Positions 537 to 13,636 of a DNA stretch of 64,000 bases are shown here, one piece after another. Numbering within the stretch: the stretch's first letter is position 1; the number at the start of each line of letters is the position of its first letter. A program made the translations under genes and the position numbers. A model generated the notes under the pieces. That model did no database searches. It was not told the DNA's origin and was given only the letters and a program-made list of their open reading frames with translations. This stretch comes from Zootoca vivipara (taxonomy: Eukaryota): contig NC_083283.1 of the NCBI RefSeq assembly GCF_963506605.1, positions 83,452,001 through 83,516,000 of the forward strand, given 5' to 3'.

Positions 537-1178
537 GTGGACACTGACTTGTCATAGGCCATTAGTTTCTAGTGCTCACCAAGGCAGTAAACCTATGTCT
601 TGGCAGTACCAAGAGAGGCGGCTGCTCACATTTATACACTCATTTATTCATATACTAGCTGTCTATCCATCCATCCCAACGTTTGAAAATGTTATGCAGA
701 AATGAGATAAAAACAAAATACAACAGTCAAAGCTAAAACAATTAAGAATGCATCAAATCCATCCATAAACAGGAACCCACATACTGAAGTCTTGATCAAT
801 ATTGGTTGGGATCAATACTTCCACATAAAAACTAGATGAGAGGAATAAAATCGGGCAAATAACTGTCTACCATGCATGATTGTTTGCAATATGTAGGGAA
901 CTATGTTTTCATATAGAGGAGCATCCTGTTTTATGAGCCACTAGCAACAATCCGAAGTAACACAAATGAGGCAAAGATTGGTCACCTGTTGCATCAAGAT
1001 AAAGATTTGATGAAAGAAGATCCTTCACAGAAGGATCAGATACGCAGTGATGACTAAAAGAAGAGGGAGCTGAAAGAAATAAAAATAAGACTAACATAGT
1101 TCTGAATATAATGAGAAAGCAGAGGCAGAAAACAGAGGCAAAACAAAAAATCATGATAATCTAAAATTGTTTGCTCAC

Positions 1179-3581
1179 CTGGACTATGATTAAGCCTTCA
1201 TTGTTCAAGTTTAAATCTTCACCAGGTAGGATAGGATCATTTGCTTCACAAGCTTCTTTATTGCTCAGAGTATTGGAATAATTTGCCTTTCTAGAGTCTG
1301 TAGTAAGAGAAACCTCCTGGCAGTAGGAGTGCAGAAATGCTCGGACTCCGTCAATCCCCACAAACTGTGAGATGGGAGCCCCACTGAAATTCACACTCCC
1401 CGACTCAAGCAGCTGAGAATTTCTCCACCTGTGCAACTTGATGGCCCCTAACACAAGGAGGAAAGTGAAGAACAAGCAGGAGACAAAAGCCACTGCAAGG
1501 ACCAGGTAGAAGGTGAGGTCAGACGGAGGCTCTACAGGAGCTGAGATGCTGCTCAGGTCTGAGAGGATTGCAGGGATGGTGTCAGCCAGCACCACAGTCA
1601 GAGTGGCTGAAGCAGAGAGAGGCGGCTGCCCATTGTCCTTCACTAAAACCATCAGGCTTTGCTTGAGGGCATCTTTCTCCAGAAAGAAACGGGCCGTCCT
1701 GATCTCTCCCGTGTGGAGCCCCAGAGTGACGAGCCCTGGCTCAGTGGCCTTGATCAGCTGGTAGGAGAGCCAGGCATTCTGGCCAGAGTCCGCATCCACG
1801 GCCACCACCTTAGTGACCAGGTAGCCTGGCTCAGAGGAGCGAGGGGCCAGCTCTATCCCCGTGGAGCCGTCGGTGGGAGGGGAGGGGTACAGGATCTGGG
1901 GAGCATTGTCATTCTGGTCCAGGATGAAGAGAGTCACTGAGACGTTGGAGCTGAGTGGTGGAGAACCTCCATCCTGAGCCTTTACACGGAACCGAATGTC
2001 TTGAAACTCTTCATAATCAAAGGAGGTCAGAGCATATATAACCCCCGTCTCAGAGTTAATGGAGAGGTAGGAGGAGAGGCGGGAGTCACTTCTTTCGTCA
2101 TCAGTGATGGAATATGTTATTCTGGCATTTTCTTCCCAGTCTGGATCAATTGCTTTCAGGGAAAAGACTGATGCTCCTCTTGGATTGTTTTCTAGGAGAT
2201 AAGAAGTGTAGACTGACTGTAGAAAGACTGGGGGGTTGTCATTTGTGTCTAACAGCTGCAGTGAAATAATTGCAGAGGTTGATAATGCTGGAATCCCATT
2301 ATCAGTTGCTGTAACAATGATATCATAGGTTGCCACTTGTTCCCTGTCAAGGGCTCTGTCTGTCACTAAAGTGTAAAAATTGTCCATTGTTTTTTTAAGT
2401 TGGAAAGGAAGACTGTTGGAAATTGAGCATATAACCTCCCCATTGACTCCTGAATCTCTGTCTTGGACATTTAAAATGGCAATGACAGTTCCCGTTGGTG
2501 TGTTCTCAGGGACAGAGTTGAGTACAAAGGTGATTGCTATTTCAGGTGCATTGTCATTTAAGTCTGTTACAAAGATCACAACCTTTGATCTGTCACTTAG
2601 ACCACCACCATCAATGGCTTGCACCTCAAATTCATATAAGGATGATATTTCAAAGTCAAGGCTTCCTGCAAGGATAATGTCTCCTGTTGTTGAATTCAAT
2701 AGAAACATTTTAGAATTCTTCTCTGTGTTTTTTTCAAATGAATACTTTACCTCTCCATTTATCCCTTCATCTATATCGGTGGCTCTCACTGTAACGACTA
2801 CAGACCCTTTAGGAATATTCTCCTTCATGCTTGCTTCAAAGATTTGTTGTGTGAAAACCGGTGCATTGTCATTTGCATCTAGAACAATTACATGAATTTG
2901 AGCAGTACCAGACCTGACTGGATCACCCCCATCAGTAGCTGTGAGGATTAGATCATAATCTGGTTGCTCTTCCCTGTCCAGAAGTTTCTCCAGCACTAGC
3001 TCAGCATGTCTTGCCCCATTTTCTCCTGTCTCCACATGCAGAGAAAAATGGCTATTACCTGAAAGTTGATAATTTTGTATAGAATTTATCCCTAGATCTG
3101 GATCTTGAGCTTTGGGTAGAAAAAACCTGTCTCTGAGTGTAGCTGTCTCACTGATTTTCATTTTCCATTCCTTTGGTAGAAACCAAGGAGCATTGTCATT
3201 TATATCTGTAATTTCCACTTCAATTCCATAGAGTTTTAATTTGCTTTCAATAAAAACCTGCAACTTCAATATGCATTTGTCTGTCTCTCCACAGATTTCC
3301 TCTCTATCTATTCTTTCAGAAATCTGTAAATGGCCATTGTTGACATTCAAAGCAAAATACTGAACCATACCTACACTGGAAACAATGCGGAGTCCATGAT
3401 CTGAAAGCTGCTTCCCATCCATTCCCAGGTCCTTTGCAACATTCCCCACAAAAGAGCCTTTCTGCATCTCCTCAGGAATGGAATAGCGGATCTGCCCAGA
3501 AACTGCCTTCCAGATAGTCACCATGACAAGGCATTGCAGGATTCCTTTTTTGCATCTCCTGAGTCTGTGGGTTTCTTCCAT
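1179..3581 (-). CDS. PCDHGA: Protocadherin gammaA-like variable exon 1 (signal peptide, EC1-EC6, TM, variable cytoplasmic segment); member number not assignable
   Basis: 806-aa ORF with repeated DxNDNAP/LDRE/AxDGG cadherin motifs, TM segment and gammaA-type tail [21 protein letters not shown]; donor CAG|GTGAGC at 1179/1178, phase 0 (2403 bp). Confidence 0.95.
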
Positions 3582-7936: not shown

Positions 7937-8373
7937 TGTAAGCAACAGCAATGGCTAGCACACAGTCTGTGTGTAAATAGTGAGTTTTATTCCAAATAGA
8001 CAAAACAAAGGCAAGTAACCACAAGAAAGACTGCAACTTCCTGCTCAAGACCACTAGTTAATCAGATGATGACTCATCTAGCTCTCTAGCGTGAGTCCAC
8101 CTCCTTTTATTCCTACGCTCGAACAACGCCCTCTGCCTCTCTCTCTGTAATTGCCATTTCCTCTTATCCTGTAACCCTCCCCTCCTACGTTCCTGTAACT
8201 TTAAAGAACTAGGAACAGACTCGGACAAACTCTCTTCTGAGGTTTGAGTTATTTCTGCCATTTGCTCACCCCTCCCAGCCAGTTCCTTTATCAAAGCAAG
8301 CCTCCCTTCCAGTTCCGGGCTATCAGCCAAGTCCGACAGCTGAGCCTCATTAGTTATCGGCTCTAACCTAACA
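7937..8373 (-). repeat. 3' LTR
   Basis: Directly follows the PPT; matches 13068-13504. Confidence 0.95.
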
Positions 8374-9584
8374 TCATCCCCCCCTCTAGGGGCCTCCTCT
8401 CCTTCCTCCCGCCTCCGCACTTCCTTACTTGGGGCGTTATGAGATACCTCCCACCATTCTCCCTCTTCACTTCCCCAATAACTGCAACCCGGTTGCGACT
8501 CTTCTACTTCTTCCTCCTCTTCAAACCCACCATTCACTTCAGCTTCCCAGTCTGCCTGTTCTGCCTGCTCCTCTACCCAACCCCGGGGTTTGGGTTTATT
8601 AGGGTACCTATGGTGAAACTCTCTCTGCAGCCTAGATGCATGTATATCACTCGCATTCACCCATGAGTTCTCCTCTGGTCCGTACCCTTTCCAAGCCACC
8701 AAATACTGTACCCCCCTGCCCCTTCTACGAGAGTCCAATAGCTGAACCACTTCATATTCCGGTTCACCCTCCACCCAGATGGGCAAAGGTGGTGGCTCCT
8801 TCCTCTTCTGATACCGGTGTCTTGGCGTTACTGGCGATAAGAGTGACCGATGGAACACCGGATACATCTTCATTGAAGTCGGTAAACGTAACTTATATGA
8901 AACAGGATTTATTTGTTCCAACACTTCGAATGGCCCTACCCGTTGCGGCAGTAACTTCTTACAACGTCCCTTGCTCGGCCAATCTTTAGTGGATAGCCAA
9001 ACTTGGTCCCCTACCCTTATCTCCTTGCCCACTTGCCGGTGTTTATCAGCTTCTGCCTTATACAGAGCCTTCGCTTTTTCTAGCTGTTCTCGCAGAATAC
9101 TGTGCAACGCTTCCATTTCTTCTGCGAACTGTTCAGCTGCAGGCACTGCCAGTCCATCTCCCTGACCTGGAAACACCCGTGGATGTCGCCCATGGCAGGC
9201 AAAAAATGGCGTCTGCTGTGTAGAAGCATGCACAGCATTATTATAAGCAAACTCAGCCAACGCTAGTTTCCCAACCCAGTCATCCTGTTGATAATTCACG
9301 TAACAACGTAGGTACTGTTGCAACGTCGCGTTCGTCCGTTCGGCCTCTCCGTTTGTCTGAGGATGCCGAGCCGATGAGAGGCACACCTCCACCTTCAGCA
9401 ATTGCATCAGTCTCCTCCAAAACTGGGAGGTAAACTGCGTTCCCCTATCAGACACAATCTTCTGCGGCAATCCATGCAATTTGAACACATGTTCTATGAA
9501 GAGTTGCGCGGTCTCCTGTGCCGACGGTAATTTCTTGCAAGGAACAAAGTGTGCCATCTTGGAGAACAGATCTACTACCACCAA
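8058..9584 (-). CDS. pol: Pol part 2: integrase core, GPF, chromodomain and a C-terminal extension through U3
   Basis: VVVDLFSK, SDRG, QTNGEAER, GPF, EYEVVQLLDSR...YLVAWKGYGPEENSW. Confidence 0.88.
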   Translation of the reverse strand: MVVVDLFSKMAHFVPCKKLPSAQETAQLFIEHVFKLHGLPQKIVSDRGTQFTSQFWRRLMQLLKVEVCLSSARHPQTNGEAERTNATLQQYLRCYVNYQQDDWVGKLALAEFAYNNAVHASTQQTPFFACHGRHPRVFPGQGDGLAVPAAEQFAEEMEALHSILREQLEKAKALYKAEADKHRQVGKEIRVGDQVWLSTKDWPSKGRCKKLLPQRVGPFEVLEQINPVSYKLRLPTSMKMYPVFHRSLLSPVTPRHRYQKRKEPPPLPIWVEGEPEYEVVQLLDSRRRGRGVQYLVAWKGYGPEENSWVNASDIHASRLQREFHHRYPNKPKPRGWVEEQAEQADWEAEVNGGFEEEEEVEESQPGCSYWGSEEGEWWEVSHNAPSKEVRRREEGEEAPRGGDDVRLEPITNEAQLSDLADSPELEGRLALIKELAGRGEQMAEITQTSEESLSESVPSSLKLQERRRGGLQDKRKWQLQRERQRALFERRNKRRWTHARELDESSSD

Positions 9585-12022
9585 ACCACTGTCTGTTTCT
9601 GCGACTCGGGCAAATCAGTGATAAAGTCCATAGCAATGCCTTCCCACGGTGCTTGTGGTGTGGGCAGTGGTTGAAGTAGCCCGGCTGGTGTTTCGCGAGG
9701 TCTTTTGGACCGTTGGCACACTTCACATGCCCGGACATACTCCTTGACCTCCTCCTGCATCCGTGGCCACCAAAAATCCCTTGATACCAGACGTTCCGTC
9801 TTCCACTGCCCAAAATGTCCTGCTGTTGGACTGTCATGGCATTGTCTCAGCACCCTCGCACGAAGCTCTCCCTCTGGCACATAGAGAGCTTCCCCCTTGT
9901 ACAGCAGCCCTCCTTTCTCAGTAAACTCCTTCCCTTGGACTTCCCCCTTACGTATTGCCTTCCTCTTCTCTTGAGCGAACCCATCCTTCTGCGTTTGTTG
10001 GAGAAAGTCTGACCGTTCTAATGCCGTCATTGTTGCTAGCTGCAGTTGTTCGGGGCTCAGGATCAATCTCCGTTCTAACCCGGTCTCTATTTCGGAATAC
10101 TCCGGTTTTCGGGACAATGCGTCCGCCCGCTGGTTCTGAGCACTAGCCACATACTTAATCCGGAAATTGAACCTGGCAAAGAATTGCGCCCACCTAATCT
10201 GTCGTTGGTTCAATTGACGAGCCGTCTGCCAGTACTCTAGGTTTTTATGATCAGTGCGTACCTCCACCTGATGCTGCGCCCCTTCCAAGAAATGCCGCCA
10301 AGTTTGTAGAGCATCCTTTATTGCCAACAACTCTCTCTCCCATATAGTATAATTTTGTTCTGACGATTTTAATTTCCTTGAGTGAAAGGCACATGGTCTC
10401 AGTTCCCCTTTGTCATCTTCCTGGAGAAGCACCGCCCCAATGGCTTTGTCCGAAGCATCAGTTTCCACGACCATCGGCTTGTACGGGTCTGGATGAGCCA
10501 AGTATCTTTCCTCCACAAACAAGTTCTTAAGTCTCTCAAACGCCTTTTGGGCTTCCTCAGTCCATTTAAACGCCTTTTTGCCTTTCAAACAATCTGTTAT
10601 CGGTGCTGTAAGGCCTGAGTACCTTGGTATAAACTTCCGATAGTAATTGGCAAACCCCAAGAATCTTTGTACATCTTTTCGAGTCTTGGGTCTTTGCCAT
10701 GACACTACTGCCTGAACCTTTGCTGGATCCATGTGCACCCCCTCTGGGGTGATTCTATAGCCTAAGAACTCCACTTCTGTTACGTGAAAGTGGCATTTCT
10801 CCAACTTAGCGTACAATCGATGTTCTCTTAGACGCTCTAACACTTCCTTCACATGTTGTACGTGTTCTTCCAGACTCTCCGAGTAGATTAATAGGTCATC
10901 TAAATAAGCAAGGACCGAACGATCCAACAAGTCGGACAACACGTAATTAATAAATGCCTGAAAGGTGGCCGTGCCCGACTGTAGTCCAAACGGCATGACA
11001 AGATATTCAAATGTGCCGTACCTGGTGTTAAATGTCGTCTTCCATTCATCTCCCTCTCTTACTCGTATCAAATTATATGCCCCCCTCAAGTCCAGTTTTG
11101 TAAAAATTTTAGCCGACCGTAATCTTTCCAACAAATCCCCAATTCGTGGCAACGGGTAACGACTGGGAATCATGCGCTGGTTGATCTTCCTGTAATCAAC
11201 TACAAGTCTTTTCTCAGAAGTGTTCTTCTTATCCACAAAGAAAATTGGAGCTCCTCCCGGAGTCTTGGTAGGCCGTATGAAACCCCGTTCCAAATTTTTT
11301 CGCAGGAACTCCCTCAGTTCTGCCAACTCCACTTCTGACATAGCGTAGATACGGCTGGCGGGTATCTCAGCCCCTGGCACCAGATCTATTTTGCAATCGT
11401 ACTGGCGATGCGGTGGTAACCGATCTGCCTCCTTCTCGCAGAATACGTCTCTAAAAGACTTATACTGTGGGGGTATTTGTCTCTCTTCCCCAGTGAGCGG
11501 ACCACAGTCTGGCGTACCATTGGCCTCACCATTCTTCTCCGCCCTGATTCCCAAACAATGTAGTCGGCAATACACTGACGAAAAGGTCATCGATCTCTGG
11601 CCCCAGGAGATCATCGGATCATGACGGGATAGCCAACTCATCCCCAAAACCACGGGGTAGGAGTTCAACCTGGTGATATGGAATGCAATGACCTCTCGGT
11701 GTCCCGGCAGTTCTAGACCAATTGGCATTGTGGCCTCTGACACACAGCCAGACAGCAACACTCTACCATCAATTGTTCTAACTTCTAAAGGTTCTTCCAA
11801 TGACTGTGTCTCTATTCCCAACCTGCTCACCAAGTCCATGTCTATAAAATCAGTCGAGGCTCCAGAATCAATAAGAACTTCCACACGCTCGCCCCTTCCA
11901 TCTGGGAGTCGTAGCATTGCGAATGCTGTAATTACTGGTAAGATCGGTCCAGGTGGAAGCCCTTTGGGTCTCTTTTCCCCCAACCCGAGGCCTCCAGAAC
12001 GGGCTGGGTCATCTCGTTTCCC
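9575..12022 (-). CDS. pol: Retrotransposon Pol part 1 (protease, RT, RNase H, integrase N-terminus), entered by -1 frameshift
   Basis: LIDSGAS protease; KLDLRGAY and YLDD of RT; ETDAS, ELLAI and TDHKNL of RNase H; HHCC zinc finger; ends at a 1-bp frameshift near 9584. Confidence 0.9.
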   Translation of the reverse strand, partial: GKRDDPARSGGLGLGEKRPKGLPPGPILPVITAFAMLRLPDGRGERVEVLIDSGASTDFIDMDLVSRLGIETQSLEEPLEVRTIDGRVLLSGCVSEATMPIGLELPGHREVIAFHITRLNSYPVVLGMSWLSRHDPMISWGQRSMTFSSVYCRLHCLGIRAEKNGEANGTPDCGPLTGEERQIPPQYKSFRDVFCEKEADRLPPHRQYDCKIDLVPGAEIPASRIYAMSEVELAELREFLRKNLERGFIRPTKTPGGAPIFFVDKKNTSEKRLVVDYRKINQRMIPSRYPLPRIGDLLERLRSAKIFTKLDLRGAYNLIRVREGDEWKTTFNTRYGTFEYLVMPFGLQSGTATFQAFINYVLSDLLDRSVLAYLDDLLIYSESLEEHVQHVKEVLERLREHRLYAKLEKCHFHVTEVEFLGYRITPEGVHMDPAKVQAVVSWQRPKTRKDVQRFLGFANYYRKFIPRYSGLTAPITDCLKGKKAFKWTEEAQKAFERLKNLFVEERYLAHPDPYKPMVVETDASDKAIGAVLLQEDDKGELRPCAFHSRKLKSSEQNYTIWERELLAIKDALQTWRHFLEGAQHQVEVRTDHKNLEYWQTARQLNQRQIRWAQFFARFNFRIKYVASAQNQRADALSRKPEYSEIETGLERRLILSPEQLQLATMTALERSDFLQQTQKDGFAQEKRKAIRKGEVQGKEFTEKGGLLYKGEALYVPEGELRARVLRQCHDSPTAGHFGQWKTERLVSRDFWWPRMQEEVKEYVRACEVCQRSKRPRETPAGLLQPLPTPQAPWEGIAMDFITDLPESQKQTVVWW

Positions 12023-13014
12023 GACTGCTCCACTATGCCCTCTCCAGGTGTTGTTACATTTGTGCCAGACAGCGCACCTCGGTTTCTTCCTACAGTACAC
12101 TGACGAGCCATGTGATTGGGGGAGCCGCAGATAAGGCACAACCGATCTCTCCACCTTCTCTCTCTCTCAGCGTGTGTAATACTAGGTGTTGTACCCCTTC
12201 TGATAGAACTACGTTGCATGGGTGCTTCTTCCTCCACCCTTCGTGAATCCGGCAGCTCTAAGGGCACAAATGTCCTGCGGCTCTCAGACCTTCCTTGGCC
12301 CCTACGCAACCTGTCCAGCGATTGGAACCTCAGGTCTAGTTGCAAGGCGACTTGTGCCACCTCTTCCAAGGTCTTCAACCCAGGATTTTTTGCCAACTCC
12401 ACCCGAATCTCTTCACTGAGTCCCGCCTTAAACAATCCAACCAAGGCCTTTCCTTCCCAGCCTAGTTGTCTAGCAAGTCTCACAAAAGAGGACCAGAACT
12501 GTGCTACAGTTCCCTTTCCTTGCTTAAGGCTCAAGAACTCCTGTTCCCACTCTGCTTCTTGTGCAGGATTCCTGAACATGCTATCCAGAAGCTTCAAGAA
12601 GGCTGATAAGTTGGTGAGCACTCGGTCATTAGACATTAGGTAAGGGGCAATACACTGCCGCGCCTTCCCTTCCAAAAGCCCCACCACCAGGGCCACTCTG
12701 GCATCATCATCTCTGTATTCTTCCCCCTTAAGCCTTAAATAATACAAGCAGGAAGCCCGAAATGAATCATACTCTGCACCGCTCCCACTAAAACGTGGGG
12801 GAAGGGGAACAAAATTCTTTGCCACTTGCCTGCCAGATAAGTCAGAGAGTTGTCTTGCTTGTTCTGAGGTCACTCCTTCCAGCCGTGCTAATCTTGCCTT
12901 CAACTCTTGGTTCTCTGCCCAGAGAGCTTCAGTATTATCTTCTAACTTCATCTCCATTGCTGTTGCGCCAACTGATAAATCCCCAGCCGGTTGCTGCTTC
13001 CCCTTTTCTTCCAT
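11932..13014 (-). CDS. gag: Retrotransposon Gag
   Basis: 360 aa; coiled coil, PPRFSG motif, LKQGKGTV MHR-like segment, zinc knuckle CLICGSPNHMARQC. Confidence 0.9.
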   Translation of the reverse strand: MEEKGKQQPAGDLSVGATAMEMKLEDNTEALWAENQELKARLARLEGVTSEQARQLSDLSGRQVAKNFVPLPPRFSGSGAEYDSFRASCLYYLRLKGEEYRDDDARVALVVGLLEGKARQCIAPYLMSNDRVLTNLSAFLKLLDSMFRNPAQEAEWEQEFLSLKQGKGTVAQFWSSFVRLARQLGWEGKALVGLFKAGLSEEIRVELAKNPGLKTLEEVAQVALQLDLRFQSLDRLRRGQGRSESRRTFVPLELPDSRRVEEEAPMQRSSIRRGTTPSITHAERERRWRDRLCLICGSPNHMARQCTVGRNRGALSGTNVTTPGEGIVEQSGNEMTQPVLEASGWGKRDPKGFHLDRSYQ

Positions 13015-13067
13015 TCTTGCTTAAATCCACATGCTTCCCCTTCAGCAGCAAGTTAGATGAGTCATGC

Positions 13068-13504
13068 TGTAAGCAACAGCAATGGCTAGCACACAGTCTG
13101 TGTGTAAATAGTGAGTTTTATTCCAAATAGACAAAACAAAGGCAAGTAACCACAAGAAAGACTGCAACTTCCTGCTCAAGACCACTAGTTAATCAGATGA
13201 TGACTCATCTAGCTCTCTAGCGTGAGTCCACCTCCTTTTATTCCTACGCTCGAACAACGCCCTCTGCCTCTCTCTCTGTAATTGCCATTTCCTCTTATCC
13301 TGTAACCCTCCCCTCCTACGTTCCTGTAACTTTAAAGAACTAGGAACAGACTCGGACAAACTCTCTTCTGAGGTTTGAGTTATTTCTGCCATTTGCTCAC
13401 CCCTCCCAGCCAGTTCCTTTATCAAAGCAAGCCTCCCTTCCAGTTCCGGGCTATCAGCCAAGTCCGACAGCTGAGCCTCATTAGTTATCGGCTCTAACCT
13501 AACA
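13068..13504 (-). repeat. 5' LTR
   Basis: No difference from 7937-8373 seen by eye; TATA-like AATAAAA at 13236-13242; polyA signal AATAAA at 13117-13122. Confidence 0.95.
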
Positions 13505-13636
13505 CTAATAAATATAAAACCATGTGCTATTTATAATAACAGCCTCCAAGATAGTATTGTAGATCAGCAGATAGATGTAAAATTCACCAAGATGAGTAAG
13601 TTCATATAAAATCAAAAGATAACCTGATTAACTCAC

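What the first reader, a model, noticed from the sequence alone, without database searches (positions are those of the whole stretch)
13054..13242. tRNA-independent self-priming signature in the LTR element
There is no TGG-type tRNA PBS. Instead, 2 nt after the 5' LTR the element strand reads ATGACTCATCTA (13065-13054). This is the perfect 12-nt complement of TAGATGAGTCAT inside the LTR (13211-13200), which lies 25-31 nt downstream of a TATA-like AATAAAA (13242-13236). The predicted 5' end of the transcript can therefore fold onto the PBS and prime reverse transcription. This mechanism was shown for fission yeast Tf1 and proposed for vertebrate sushi-type elements. A young amniote copy offers a testable case.
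Basis: partly seen in the sequence, partly recalled or inferred. Interest (0 to 1): 0.7.

Follow-up and report, generated by a model that had tools for sequence, protein, structure and literature searches.

The report
Self-priming lizard chromovirus retrotransposon
A very young jumping gene in a lizard-type genome has no tRNA docking site; the bases after its left repeat pair with the predicted first 11 letters of its own RNA, and sister families keep this pairing with different letters, so it likely starts copying itself with its own RNA, a trick shown in yeast Tf1 and already predicted for this vertebrate group.

Summary
Observation confirmed. The site lies in a young chromodomain Ty3/gypsy element (identical 437-nt LTRs, 5-nt TSD) in a protocadherin cluster. 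The 12-nt complement is exact (2 of 5000 shuffles reach it). Self-priming is well supported by covariation: four families in this genome carry three unrelated PBS sequences, each matched by its own LTR; in one family 54 of 61 alignable copies pair perfectly, in five sequence versions, with 9 changes on the tree each made on both sides. Refinement: the primer is probably 11 nt starting at A13210, not 12 nt; ATAAA sits at -31 in three families but is missing in the fourth. No tRNA matched (partial set). The start site is not shown: RNA reads of this family were nearly absent and a sister family showed no pile-up. Self-priming is established for Tf1 and predicted in print for vertebrate Tf1/sushi elements, so this is a new member of a known kind; the covariation is the added value. 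This scan noted the same signature before in other genomes.

The parts
13068..13504 (-). 5' LTR, 437 nt, TGT...ACA
   Evidence: identical to the 3' LTR at 437 of 437 positions
13200..13210 (-). Predicted 11-nt self-primer at the start of R; T13211 adds a 12th pair in this family only
   Evidence: complement of the PBS; 11-nt boundary and purine start after a pyrimidine in families B and C; start site itself inferred
13055..13065 (-). Primer-binding site, 2 nt after the LTR (A13054 is the 12th, family-specific pair)
13236..13242 (-). TATA-like AATAAAA; ATAAA begins 31 nt upstream of A13210
   Evidence: same spacing in families A (ATAAAA or TTAAAA), B and D; absent in family C; function inferred
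13195..13210 (-). Local 6-bp hairpin that would compete with primer-PBS pairing
   Evidence: -5.9 kcal/mol against -15.6 for the duplex; predicted share 0.12-0.17; not conserved in families B and C
13166..13176 (-). Possible R/U5 arm of a second duplex with leader 13054-13044 (10 of 11 pairs)
   Evidence: not kept in the nearest subfamily, so weak
13117..13122 (-). Second AATAAA, likely poly(A) signal
   Evidence: role inferred from its position downstream of the predicted start
11932..13014 (-). gag ORF (Retrotrans_gag, DUF4939; only PDB hit PEG10 capsid)
12016..12022 (-). G GGA AAC slippery heptamer in -1 register between gag and pol
   Evidence: same heptamer as PEG10 (PMC2800197 passage)
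9575..12166 (-). pol frame: protease, RT, RNase H, integrase zinc finger; frame ends near 9575
8058..9614 (-). rest of integrase with SH3 and chromodomain (about 8756-8607), in another frame
8377..8387 (-). polypurine tract
   Evidence: sequence shows it directly
7937..8373 (-). 3' LTR (holds the second copy of the primer sequence, 8079-8069)
13505..13509 (-). target-site duplication ATTAG (other copy 7936-7932)

Best explanation
This is a Tf1/sushi-type chromovirus retrotransposon whose PBS is the exact complement of a sequence in its own LTR, and it likely primes reverse transcription without a tRNA: the RNA is predicted to start at A13210, its first 11 bases would fold back on the PBS, and RNase H would cut after base 11 to free the primer. 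Shown here: the complementarity, its fixed position 2 nt after the LTR, its 10-11-bp limits, and its maintenance through sequence change in sister families. Inferred: the start site (from ATAAA at -31 and a pyrimidine-purine start), the cut and the extension (by analogy with Tf1). The covariation may arise partly by templating: if the retained primer is copied into the new PBS during plus-strand synthesis, the PBS follows the LTR automatically, as a PBS follows its tRNA in other elements. Either way the LTR sequence stands in the place of the tRNA.
For: Exact 12-nt match, 2 of 5000 shuffles. Family A: 28 of 30 loci keep all 12 pairs, 29 of 30 the 11-nt core. Family B (RT 85-89%, different LTR): same 11-mer, perfect in the 5' LTR in 5 of 8 loci, in the 3' LTR only in 2 more, no LTR found in 1. 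Family C (RT 61%): 61 of 70 loci alignable, 54 perfect in five versions (31, 10, 9, 3, 1 copies); 99.5% of cells paired, 35 cells changed on both sides over both helices counted, 0 of 500 shuffles as high, at most 1 such cell when partners are slid; parsimony gives 1, 3 and 5 changes at primer positions 2, 4 and 11, the same number for either side alone and for the pair. Family D (RT 66-68%): a third, unrelated 10-nt pair, perfect in 4 of 6 loci that show both sites (read by eye). ATAAA or TTAAA begins at -31 in A, B and D. Predicted pairing probability 0.83-0.95 for this copy, at least 0.9 in 21 of 26 elements. Longest tRNA complement 6 nt among 29 tRNA calls. Family C also keeps a U5-leader helix next to the PBS (9 pairs counted, 99.8% paired; 13-16 bp), like one arm of the Tf1 'pretzel' (passage).
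Against: No start site was seen: three raw RNA runs gave 0, 0 and 2 reads for this family, and for family C 743-3093 reads but no listed pile of ends at the predicted +1 (L066:1963); the nearest listed piles are at 1916 and 2000, and many reads run in from flanking DNA. Family C has no TATA-like word at -31. The minimum-energy fold of this copy prefers a local hairpin and the whole fold is no better than shuffles, z -1.09; nested folding gives the duplex about 0 in L065-L067 and 0.33 in L062. Two-state covariation is common in the family C alignment through ancestry: 43 column pairs pass an unbiased filter, 3 of them primer-PBS; only primer position 4 shows more than two pair types. Seven of 61 family C copies break the duplex. 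The flanking duplexes of the pretzel are not conserved in families A and B. The tRNA set tested covers 9 amino acids only.
Confidence: 0.82

Rival explanations
1. The element primes with this same LTR sequence, but the primer comes from the R copy at the 3' end of the RNA or from the second packaged RNA, not from the 5' end in cis.
For: Both LTRs hold the sequence and covariation cannot tell the copies apart; no start site seen; an earlier unchecked note proposed this for another lineage.
Against: The duplex stops at a pyrimidine-purine step 31 nt below ATAAA in three families, as expected if its 5' limit is the RNA's 5' end; an internal copy need not stop there. Tf1 uses its first 11 bases (PMC7175516 passage). 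Comparison of both LTRs in 10 deviating copies gave no deciding pattern.
Confidence: 0.09
2. The pairing is a packaging or dimerisation structure, and priming uses a tRNA or half-tRNA on the same or a nearby site.
For: Only 29 tRNA calls of 9 amino acids were tested; the predicted primer ends in CAT, the Met anticodon.
Against: No TGG at the LTR edge; the one Met-CAT tRNA tested matches 4 nt; seven different PBS sequences across four families follow their own LTR, which a fixed tRNA would not allow.
Confidence: 0.05
3. Chance or a by-product: two AP-1-type sites (TGAGTCA at 13207, TGACTCA at 13064) are near-palindromic and so complement each other.
For: Both 12-mers contain the AP-1-type heptamer (motif name recalled).
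Against: Families C and D have no such motif yet keep the pairing at the same place; null 2 of 5000.
Confidence: 0.02

Closest known systems
Tf1 and Tf2 of Schizosaccharomyces pombe (also Tj1, Tosmo1-3, Tcry1)
   Same: Chromodomain Ty3/gypsy element; 11-nt complement between RNA 5' end and PBS; RNase H cut between bases 11 and 12 shown for Tf1 (passages in PMC7175516, PMC4600332 and bioRxiv 2022.12.06.519325).
   Different: Host is a reptile; gag and pol joined by a -1 slippery site rather than a single ORF or in-frame stop; start site and cleavage not shown here; the three-duplex pretzel is only partly evident (one flanking helix, in family C).
[quoted passage not shown]
   Same: Vertebrate chromoviruses present in fish, amphibians and amniotes (PMC2774666 passages); self-priming described for the group in yeast and vertebrates (PMC6317226 passages citing Butler 2001); PEG10-like capsid and GGGAAAC site; nearest named Pol relatives from Podarcis and Anolis at 50-56%.
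   Different: No named V-clade reference was among my hits, so clade placement was not tested on a tree. I found no paper showing primer-PBS covariation within a vertebrate family, but Butler 2001 and the Levin papers could not be read.
Plant Tcn1 chromoviruses and TAR copia elements
   Same: Self-priming predicted from a complement of at least 10 nt starting 0-5 nt after the LTR (PMC6317226 methods passage); this element passes that rule.
   Different: Different hosts and, for TAR, a different superfamily.

Membership tests
Ty3/gypsy chromovirus | LTRs with TG...CA, TSD, PPT; order gag-PR-RT-RH-IN | tested here: met
   best PDB hit Ty3 Gag-Pol, E 8.6e-108
Ty3/gypsy chromovirus | chromodomain at the integrase C-terminus | tested here: met
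   Pfam Chromo E 1.9e-10, 41 bits over a cut-off of 25.1
Tf1/sushi group | no tRNA-complementary PBS | tested here: inconclusive
   no TGG; at most 6 nt among 29 tRNA calls, but only 9 amino acids covered
Tf1/sushi group | PBS complementary (10 nt or more, 0-5 nt after the LTR) to a sequence in the LTR | tested here: met
Tf1/sushi group | the complementary sequence is the RNA's 5' end | tested here: inconclusive
   promoter spacing fits in 3 of 4 families; RNA reads uninformative
Tf1/sushi group | three-duplex pretzel around the PBS | tested here: inconclusive
   U5-leader helix kept in family C; candidate in this copy not kept in its sister subfamily; third duplex not identified
Tf1/sushi group | RNase H cut after the primer and extension by RT | not testable with these tools
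   needs biochemistry
V-clade (sushi-ichi, Amn) | RT groups with named V-clade elements on a tree | not tested
   no named reference retrieved; the tree holds only this genome's copies

The most novel reading that the evidence does not exclude
In this reptile lineage the PBS is a copy of the element's own RNA start that is rewritten at each cycle, so primer and PBS drift together; the 9 paired changes in one young family would be the first population-level evidence of self-priming in an amniote, and the 5' hairpin (family A) or PBS-leader pairing (family C) could act as a switch that holds the primer back until packaging.
Probability: 0.35. Interest if true: 0.55.

Novelty: new member of a known kind. 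Interest (0 to 1): 0.36.

Why it matters
Self-priming has been shown by experiment only in yeast, as far as the passages read say, and is a prediction for vertebrate sushi-type elements, the group that gave mammals PEG10 and related genes. Several young families in one reptile genome that keep the pairing through repeated sequence change turn that prediction into strong comparative evidence, and they give an exact start site (A13210) that one 5'-end experiment can confirm or refute. The mechanism itself is not new.

Tried and rejected
RNA evidence for the start site: no run on record as RNA was listed as a holder; three raw RNA runs of the same species label, about 6% of each read, gave 0, 0 and 2 reads; the same runs laid on a family C copy gave many reads but no pile of ends at the predicted start. 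No verdict. Full tRNA set: the Rfam search scored only 63 candidates, so the test is partial. A 12-nt primer: rejected as the general rule, since the flanking pair is a mismatch in families B and C. TATA box as a requirement: not met in family C. A conserved second duplex in families A and B: not found. Telling a 5' from a 3' source of the primer by comparing both LTRs of 10 deviating copies: 2 lacked a usable 3' LTR, the others were mostly slightly aged copies with private changes; no verdict. The family A count caught only 20 of 30 loci through a faulty pattern and is not used; one search is. Three loci at 69-74% RT identity (L044, L045, L047) and L041 showed no LTR pair; L069 held no RT. 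Primary papers by Levin, Lin, Atwood-Moore and the Esnault review were not held; Butler 2001 was seen only as a citation. No supplements were read.

Full report
THE ELEMENT. The finding lies in an LTR retrotransposon on the minus strand, 13504-7937. Its two 437-nt LTRs are identical at all positions and are flanked by a 5-nt target duplication, so the insertion is very recent. It encodes Gag (Retrotrans_gag, DUF4939), protease, RT, RNase H, and an integrase with SH3 and chromodomain. The only PDB hit of Gag is the PEG10 capsid, the best hit of Pol is Ty3, and gag and pol overlap at G GGA AAC in -1 register, the heptamer that PEG10 uses (PMC2800197, one passage). The nearest named Pol relatives covering most of the query are from Podarcis and Anolis at 50-56%. 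In this copy the pol frame ends near 9575 and integrase continues in another frame. A DNA search of the own genome gave 33 full-length matches of the LTR-PBS stretch, this copy included, from 40 of 106 candidates scored.

THE OBSERVATION. The 12-nt match is the longest complement between the first 25 nt after the LTR and the LTR; 2 of 5000 shuffled LTRs and 2 of 8963 other window 25-mers reach that length. Among 30 loci of the family, none differs at 13211-13200, one differs at 13054 and one at 13055. The family is too young to show covariation by itself.

SISTER FAMILIES. An RT search (150 of 4296 candidates scored; a second one) and 100 fetched stretches gave three further families (tree). 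Family B (RT 85-89% identical, different LTR) has the same PBS 11-mer and the matching 11-mer in its LTR: perfect in the 5' LTR in 5 of 8 loci; in one the 5' LTR has a single change and in one a deletion, with the 3' LTR intact in both; one locus showed no LTR. Family D (RT 66-68%) has an unrelated 10-nt pair, perfect in 4 of the 6 loci (of 12) that show both sites, with one G-U and one decayed copy. Family C (RT 61%) is the real test. Of 70 loci, 61 had both sites alignable (9 did not and were dropped); 54 pair perfectly, in five versions held by 31, 10, 9, 3 and 1 copies; 7 break the duplex, 3 of them to G-U, and only one break is shared by two copies, at a CpG. On the alignment (54 distinct rows) 99.5% of cells of the 11-bp helix pair and three positions change on both sides; over both helices counted, 35 cells show a double change against 6.3 in shuffles (0 of 500 as high) and at most 1 with slid partners. 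On a tree built without these columns, positions 2, 4 and 11 change 1, 3 and 5 times, and the count is the same for the LTR side, the PBS side and the pair. Caveats: recombination between copies can inflate the count at position 11, and two-state covariation is common here through ancestry (43 column pairs pass an unbiased filter; only primer position 4 with its partner shows more than two pair types, four).

LENGTH AND START. In B and C the pair outside the 11-mer is a mismatch at both ends, and every primer starts with a purine after a pyrimidine. ATAAA (TTAAA in one subfamily) begins 31 nt upstream of that purine in A, B and D, but family C has only a T-rich stretch there. I therefore place the likely start at A13210 and treat the T13211-A13054 pair as incidental. 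Tf1 also uses 11 bases (PMC7175516, passages). The start was not observed: three raw RNA runs held 0, 0 and 2 reads of this family. The same runs held 743, 1005 and 3093 reads of family C, so the organism is in them, but none of the 18 listed piles of ends (1 more not shown) lies at the predicted start L066:1963, and many reads enter from flanking DNA. These random-fragment libraries are a weak test.

FOLDING. The minimum-energy fold of 13211-13030 closes a local hairpin at the 5' end; the centroid pairs primer with PBS; the fold as a whole is no stronger than shuffles (32 of 200 as good). Ensemble probability of the duplex is 0.83-0.88 for starts at 13210-13212, and at least 0.9 in 21 of 26 elements, but about 0 in L065-L067. 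These programs cannot model the pseudoknot-like three-duplex 'pretzel' described for Tf1 (bioRxiv 2022.12.06.519325, passages). Family C keeps a 13-16-bp U5-leader helix beside the PBS, with 99.8% of cells paired over the 9 pairs counted, mostly one-sided changes. In this copy a 10-of-11 helix 13176-13166 with 13054-13044 is possible but is not kept in the nearest subfamily.

tRNA. There is no TGG at the LTR edge. Against 29 of 31 ARAGORN calls (2 duplicates left out; 9 amino acids, one Met-CAT) the longest complement was 6 nt. The set is partial; the stronger argument is that seven PBS sequences in four families each follow their own LTR.

MECHANISM. Most likely the RNA starts at 13210, bases 1-11 pair with the PBS, RNase H cuts after base 11, and RT extends into U5 and R. 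Complementarity, position, limits and covariation are shown; start, cut and extension are inferred from Tf1. About half of Tf1 cDNA carries a copied PBS at its 3' end (PMC11042837, passage), and a cited title states that the Tf1 primer is not removed (reference list only). If so here, the PBS is rewritten from the primer, which would by itself produce the paired changes; this is inference. The main open rival is a primer drawn from the 3' R copy or a second RNA; could not decide it.

WHAT IS KNOWN. Self-priming is called a common feature of the Tf1/sushi group, described in yeast and vertebrates (PMC6317226, PMC4600332, bioRxiv 2022.12.06.519325; passages only), and V-clade chromoviruses are known from amniotes (PMC2774666, passages). 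PMC3601003 (passages) gives sushi LTR end motifs that this LTR matches fully at the 5' end and at 6 of 7 positions at the 3' end. Five searches (listings only for papers not named above) showed no paper on primer-PBS covariation in a vertebrate, but Butler 2001 and the primary Tf1 papers could not be read. Earlier notes of this scan report the same signature in other genomes; they are unchecked and are not counted as support.

VERDICT. Real, well supported by comparison, mechanism already known and predicted for this group: new member of a known kind, interest 0.36.

Noticed in passing
window 13504-7937, exon 16072-13637: The element sits about 130 nt into the intron after a clustered-protocadherin variable exon (gamma-type by recalled motif), in the same orientation, so its LTR poly(A) signals could cut that transcript short.
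   Followed up: no
window 13065-13042 (-); L036, L037, L039, L040: The PBS begins with an ATG that opens a 7-codon upstream ORF; in family B the same ATG and the same stop context give 10 codons (9 nt longer, in frame). L068 shifts it and family C lacks it.
   Followed up: no
window 12784 and about 10434; contig of run X1; also L068: One contig of this family appears to jump from gag to the RNase H region at a short shared stretch, and joins the PPT to the LTR-PBS: likely an internally deleted copy plus collapse of the two LTRs (or a one-LTR circle or tandem). L068 is another deleted copy.
   Followed up: partly
family C, L052-L067, L070, L108-L160: A much larger young family (most of the 150 hits) whose leader holds a second site able to pair with the PBS itself; nested folding prefers it in L065-L067. 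It is well represented in RNA reads, whereas this window's family is nearly absent.
   Followed up: partly
window 13223-13220 (-) and families B, C: An ACGC word lies 13-14 nt upstream of the predicted start in families A, B and C, including the family without a TATA-like word; possible core-promoter element.
   Followed up: no
L049, L050 (family D LTRs): Family D LTRs contain a short tandem repeat of variable length between the primer site and the LTR end, so the primer-to-PBS distance varies from about 160 to 370 nt.
   Followed up: no
L044, L101: Family C copies are nested in or next to older elements of other families.
   Followed up: no
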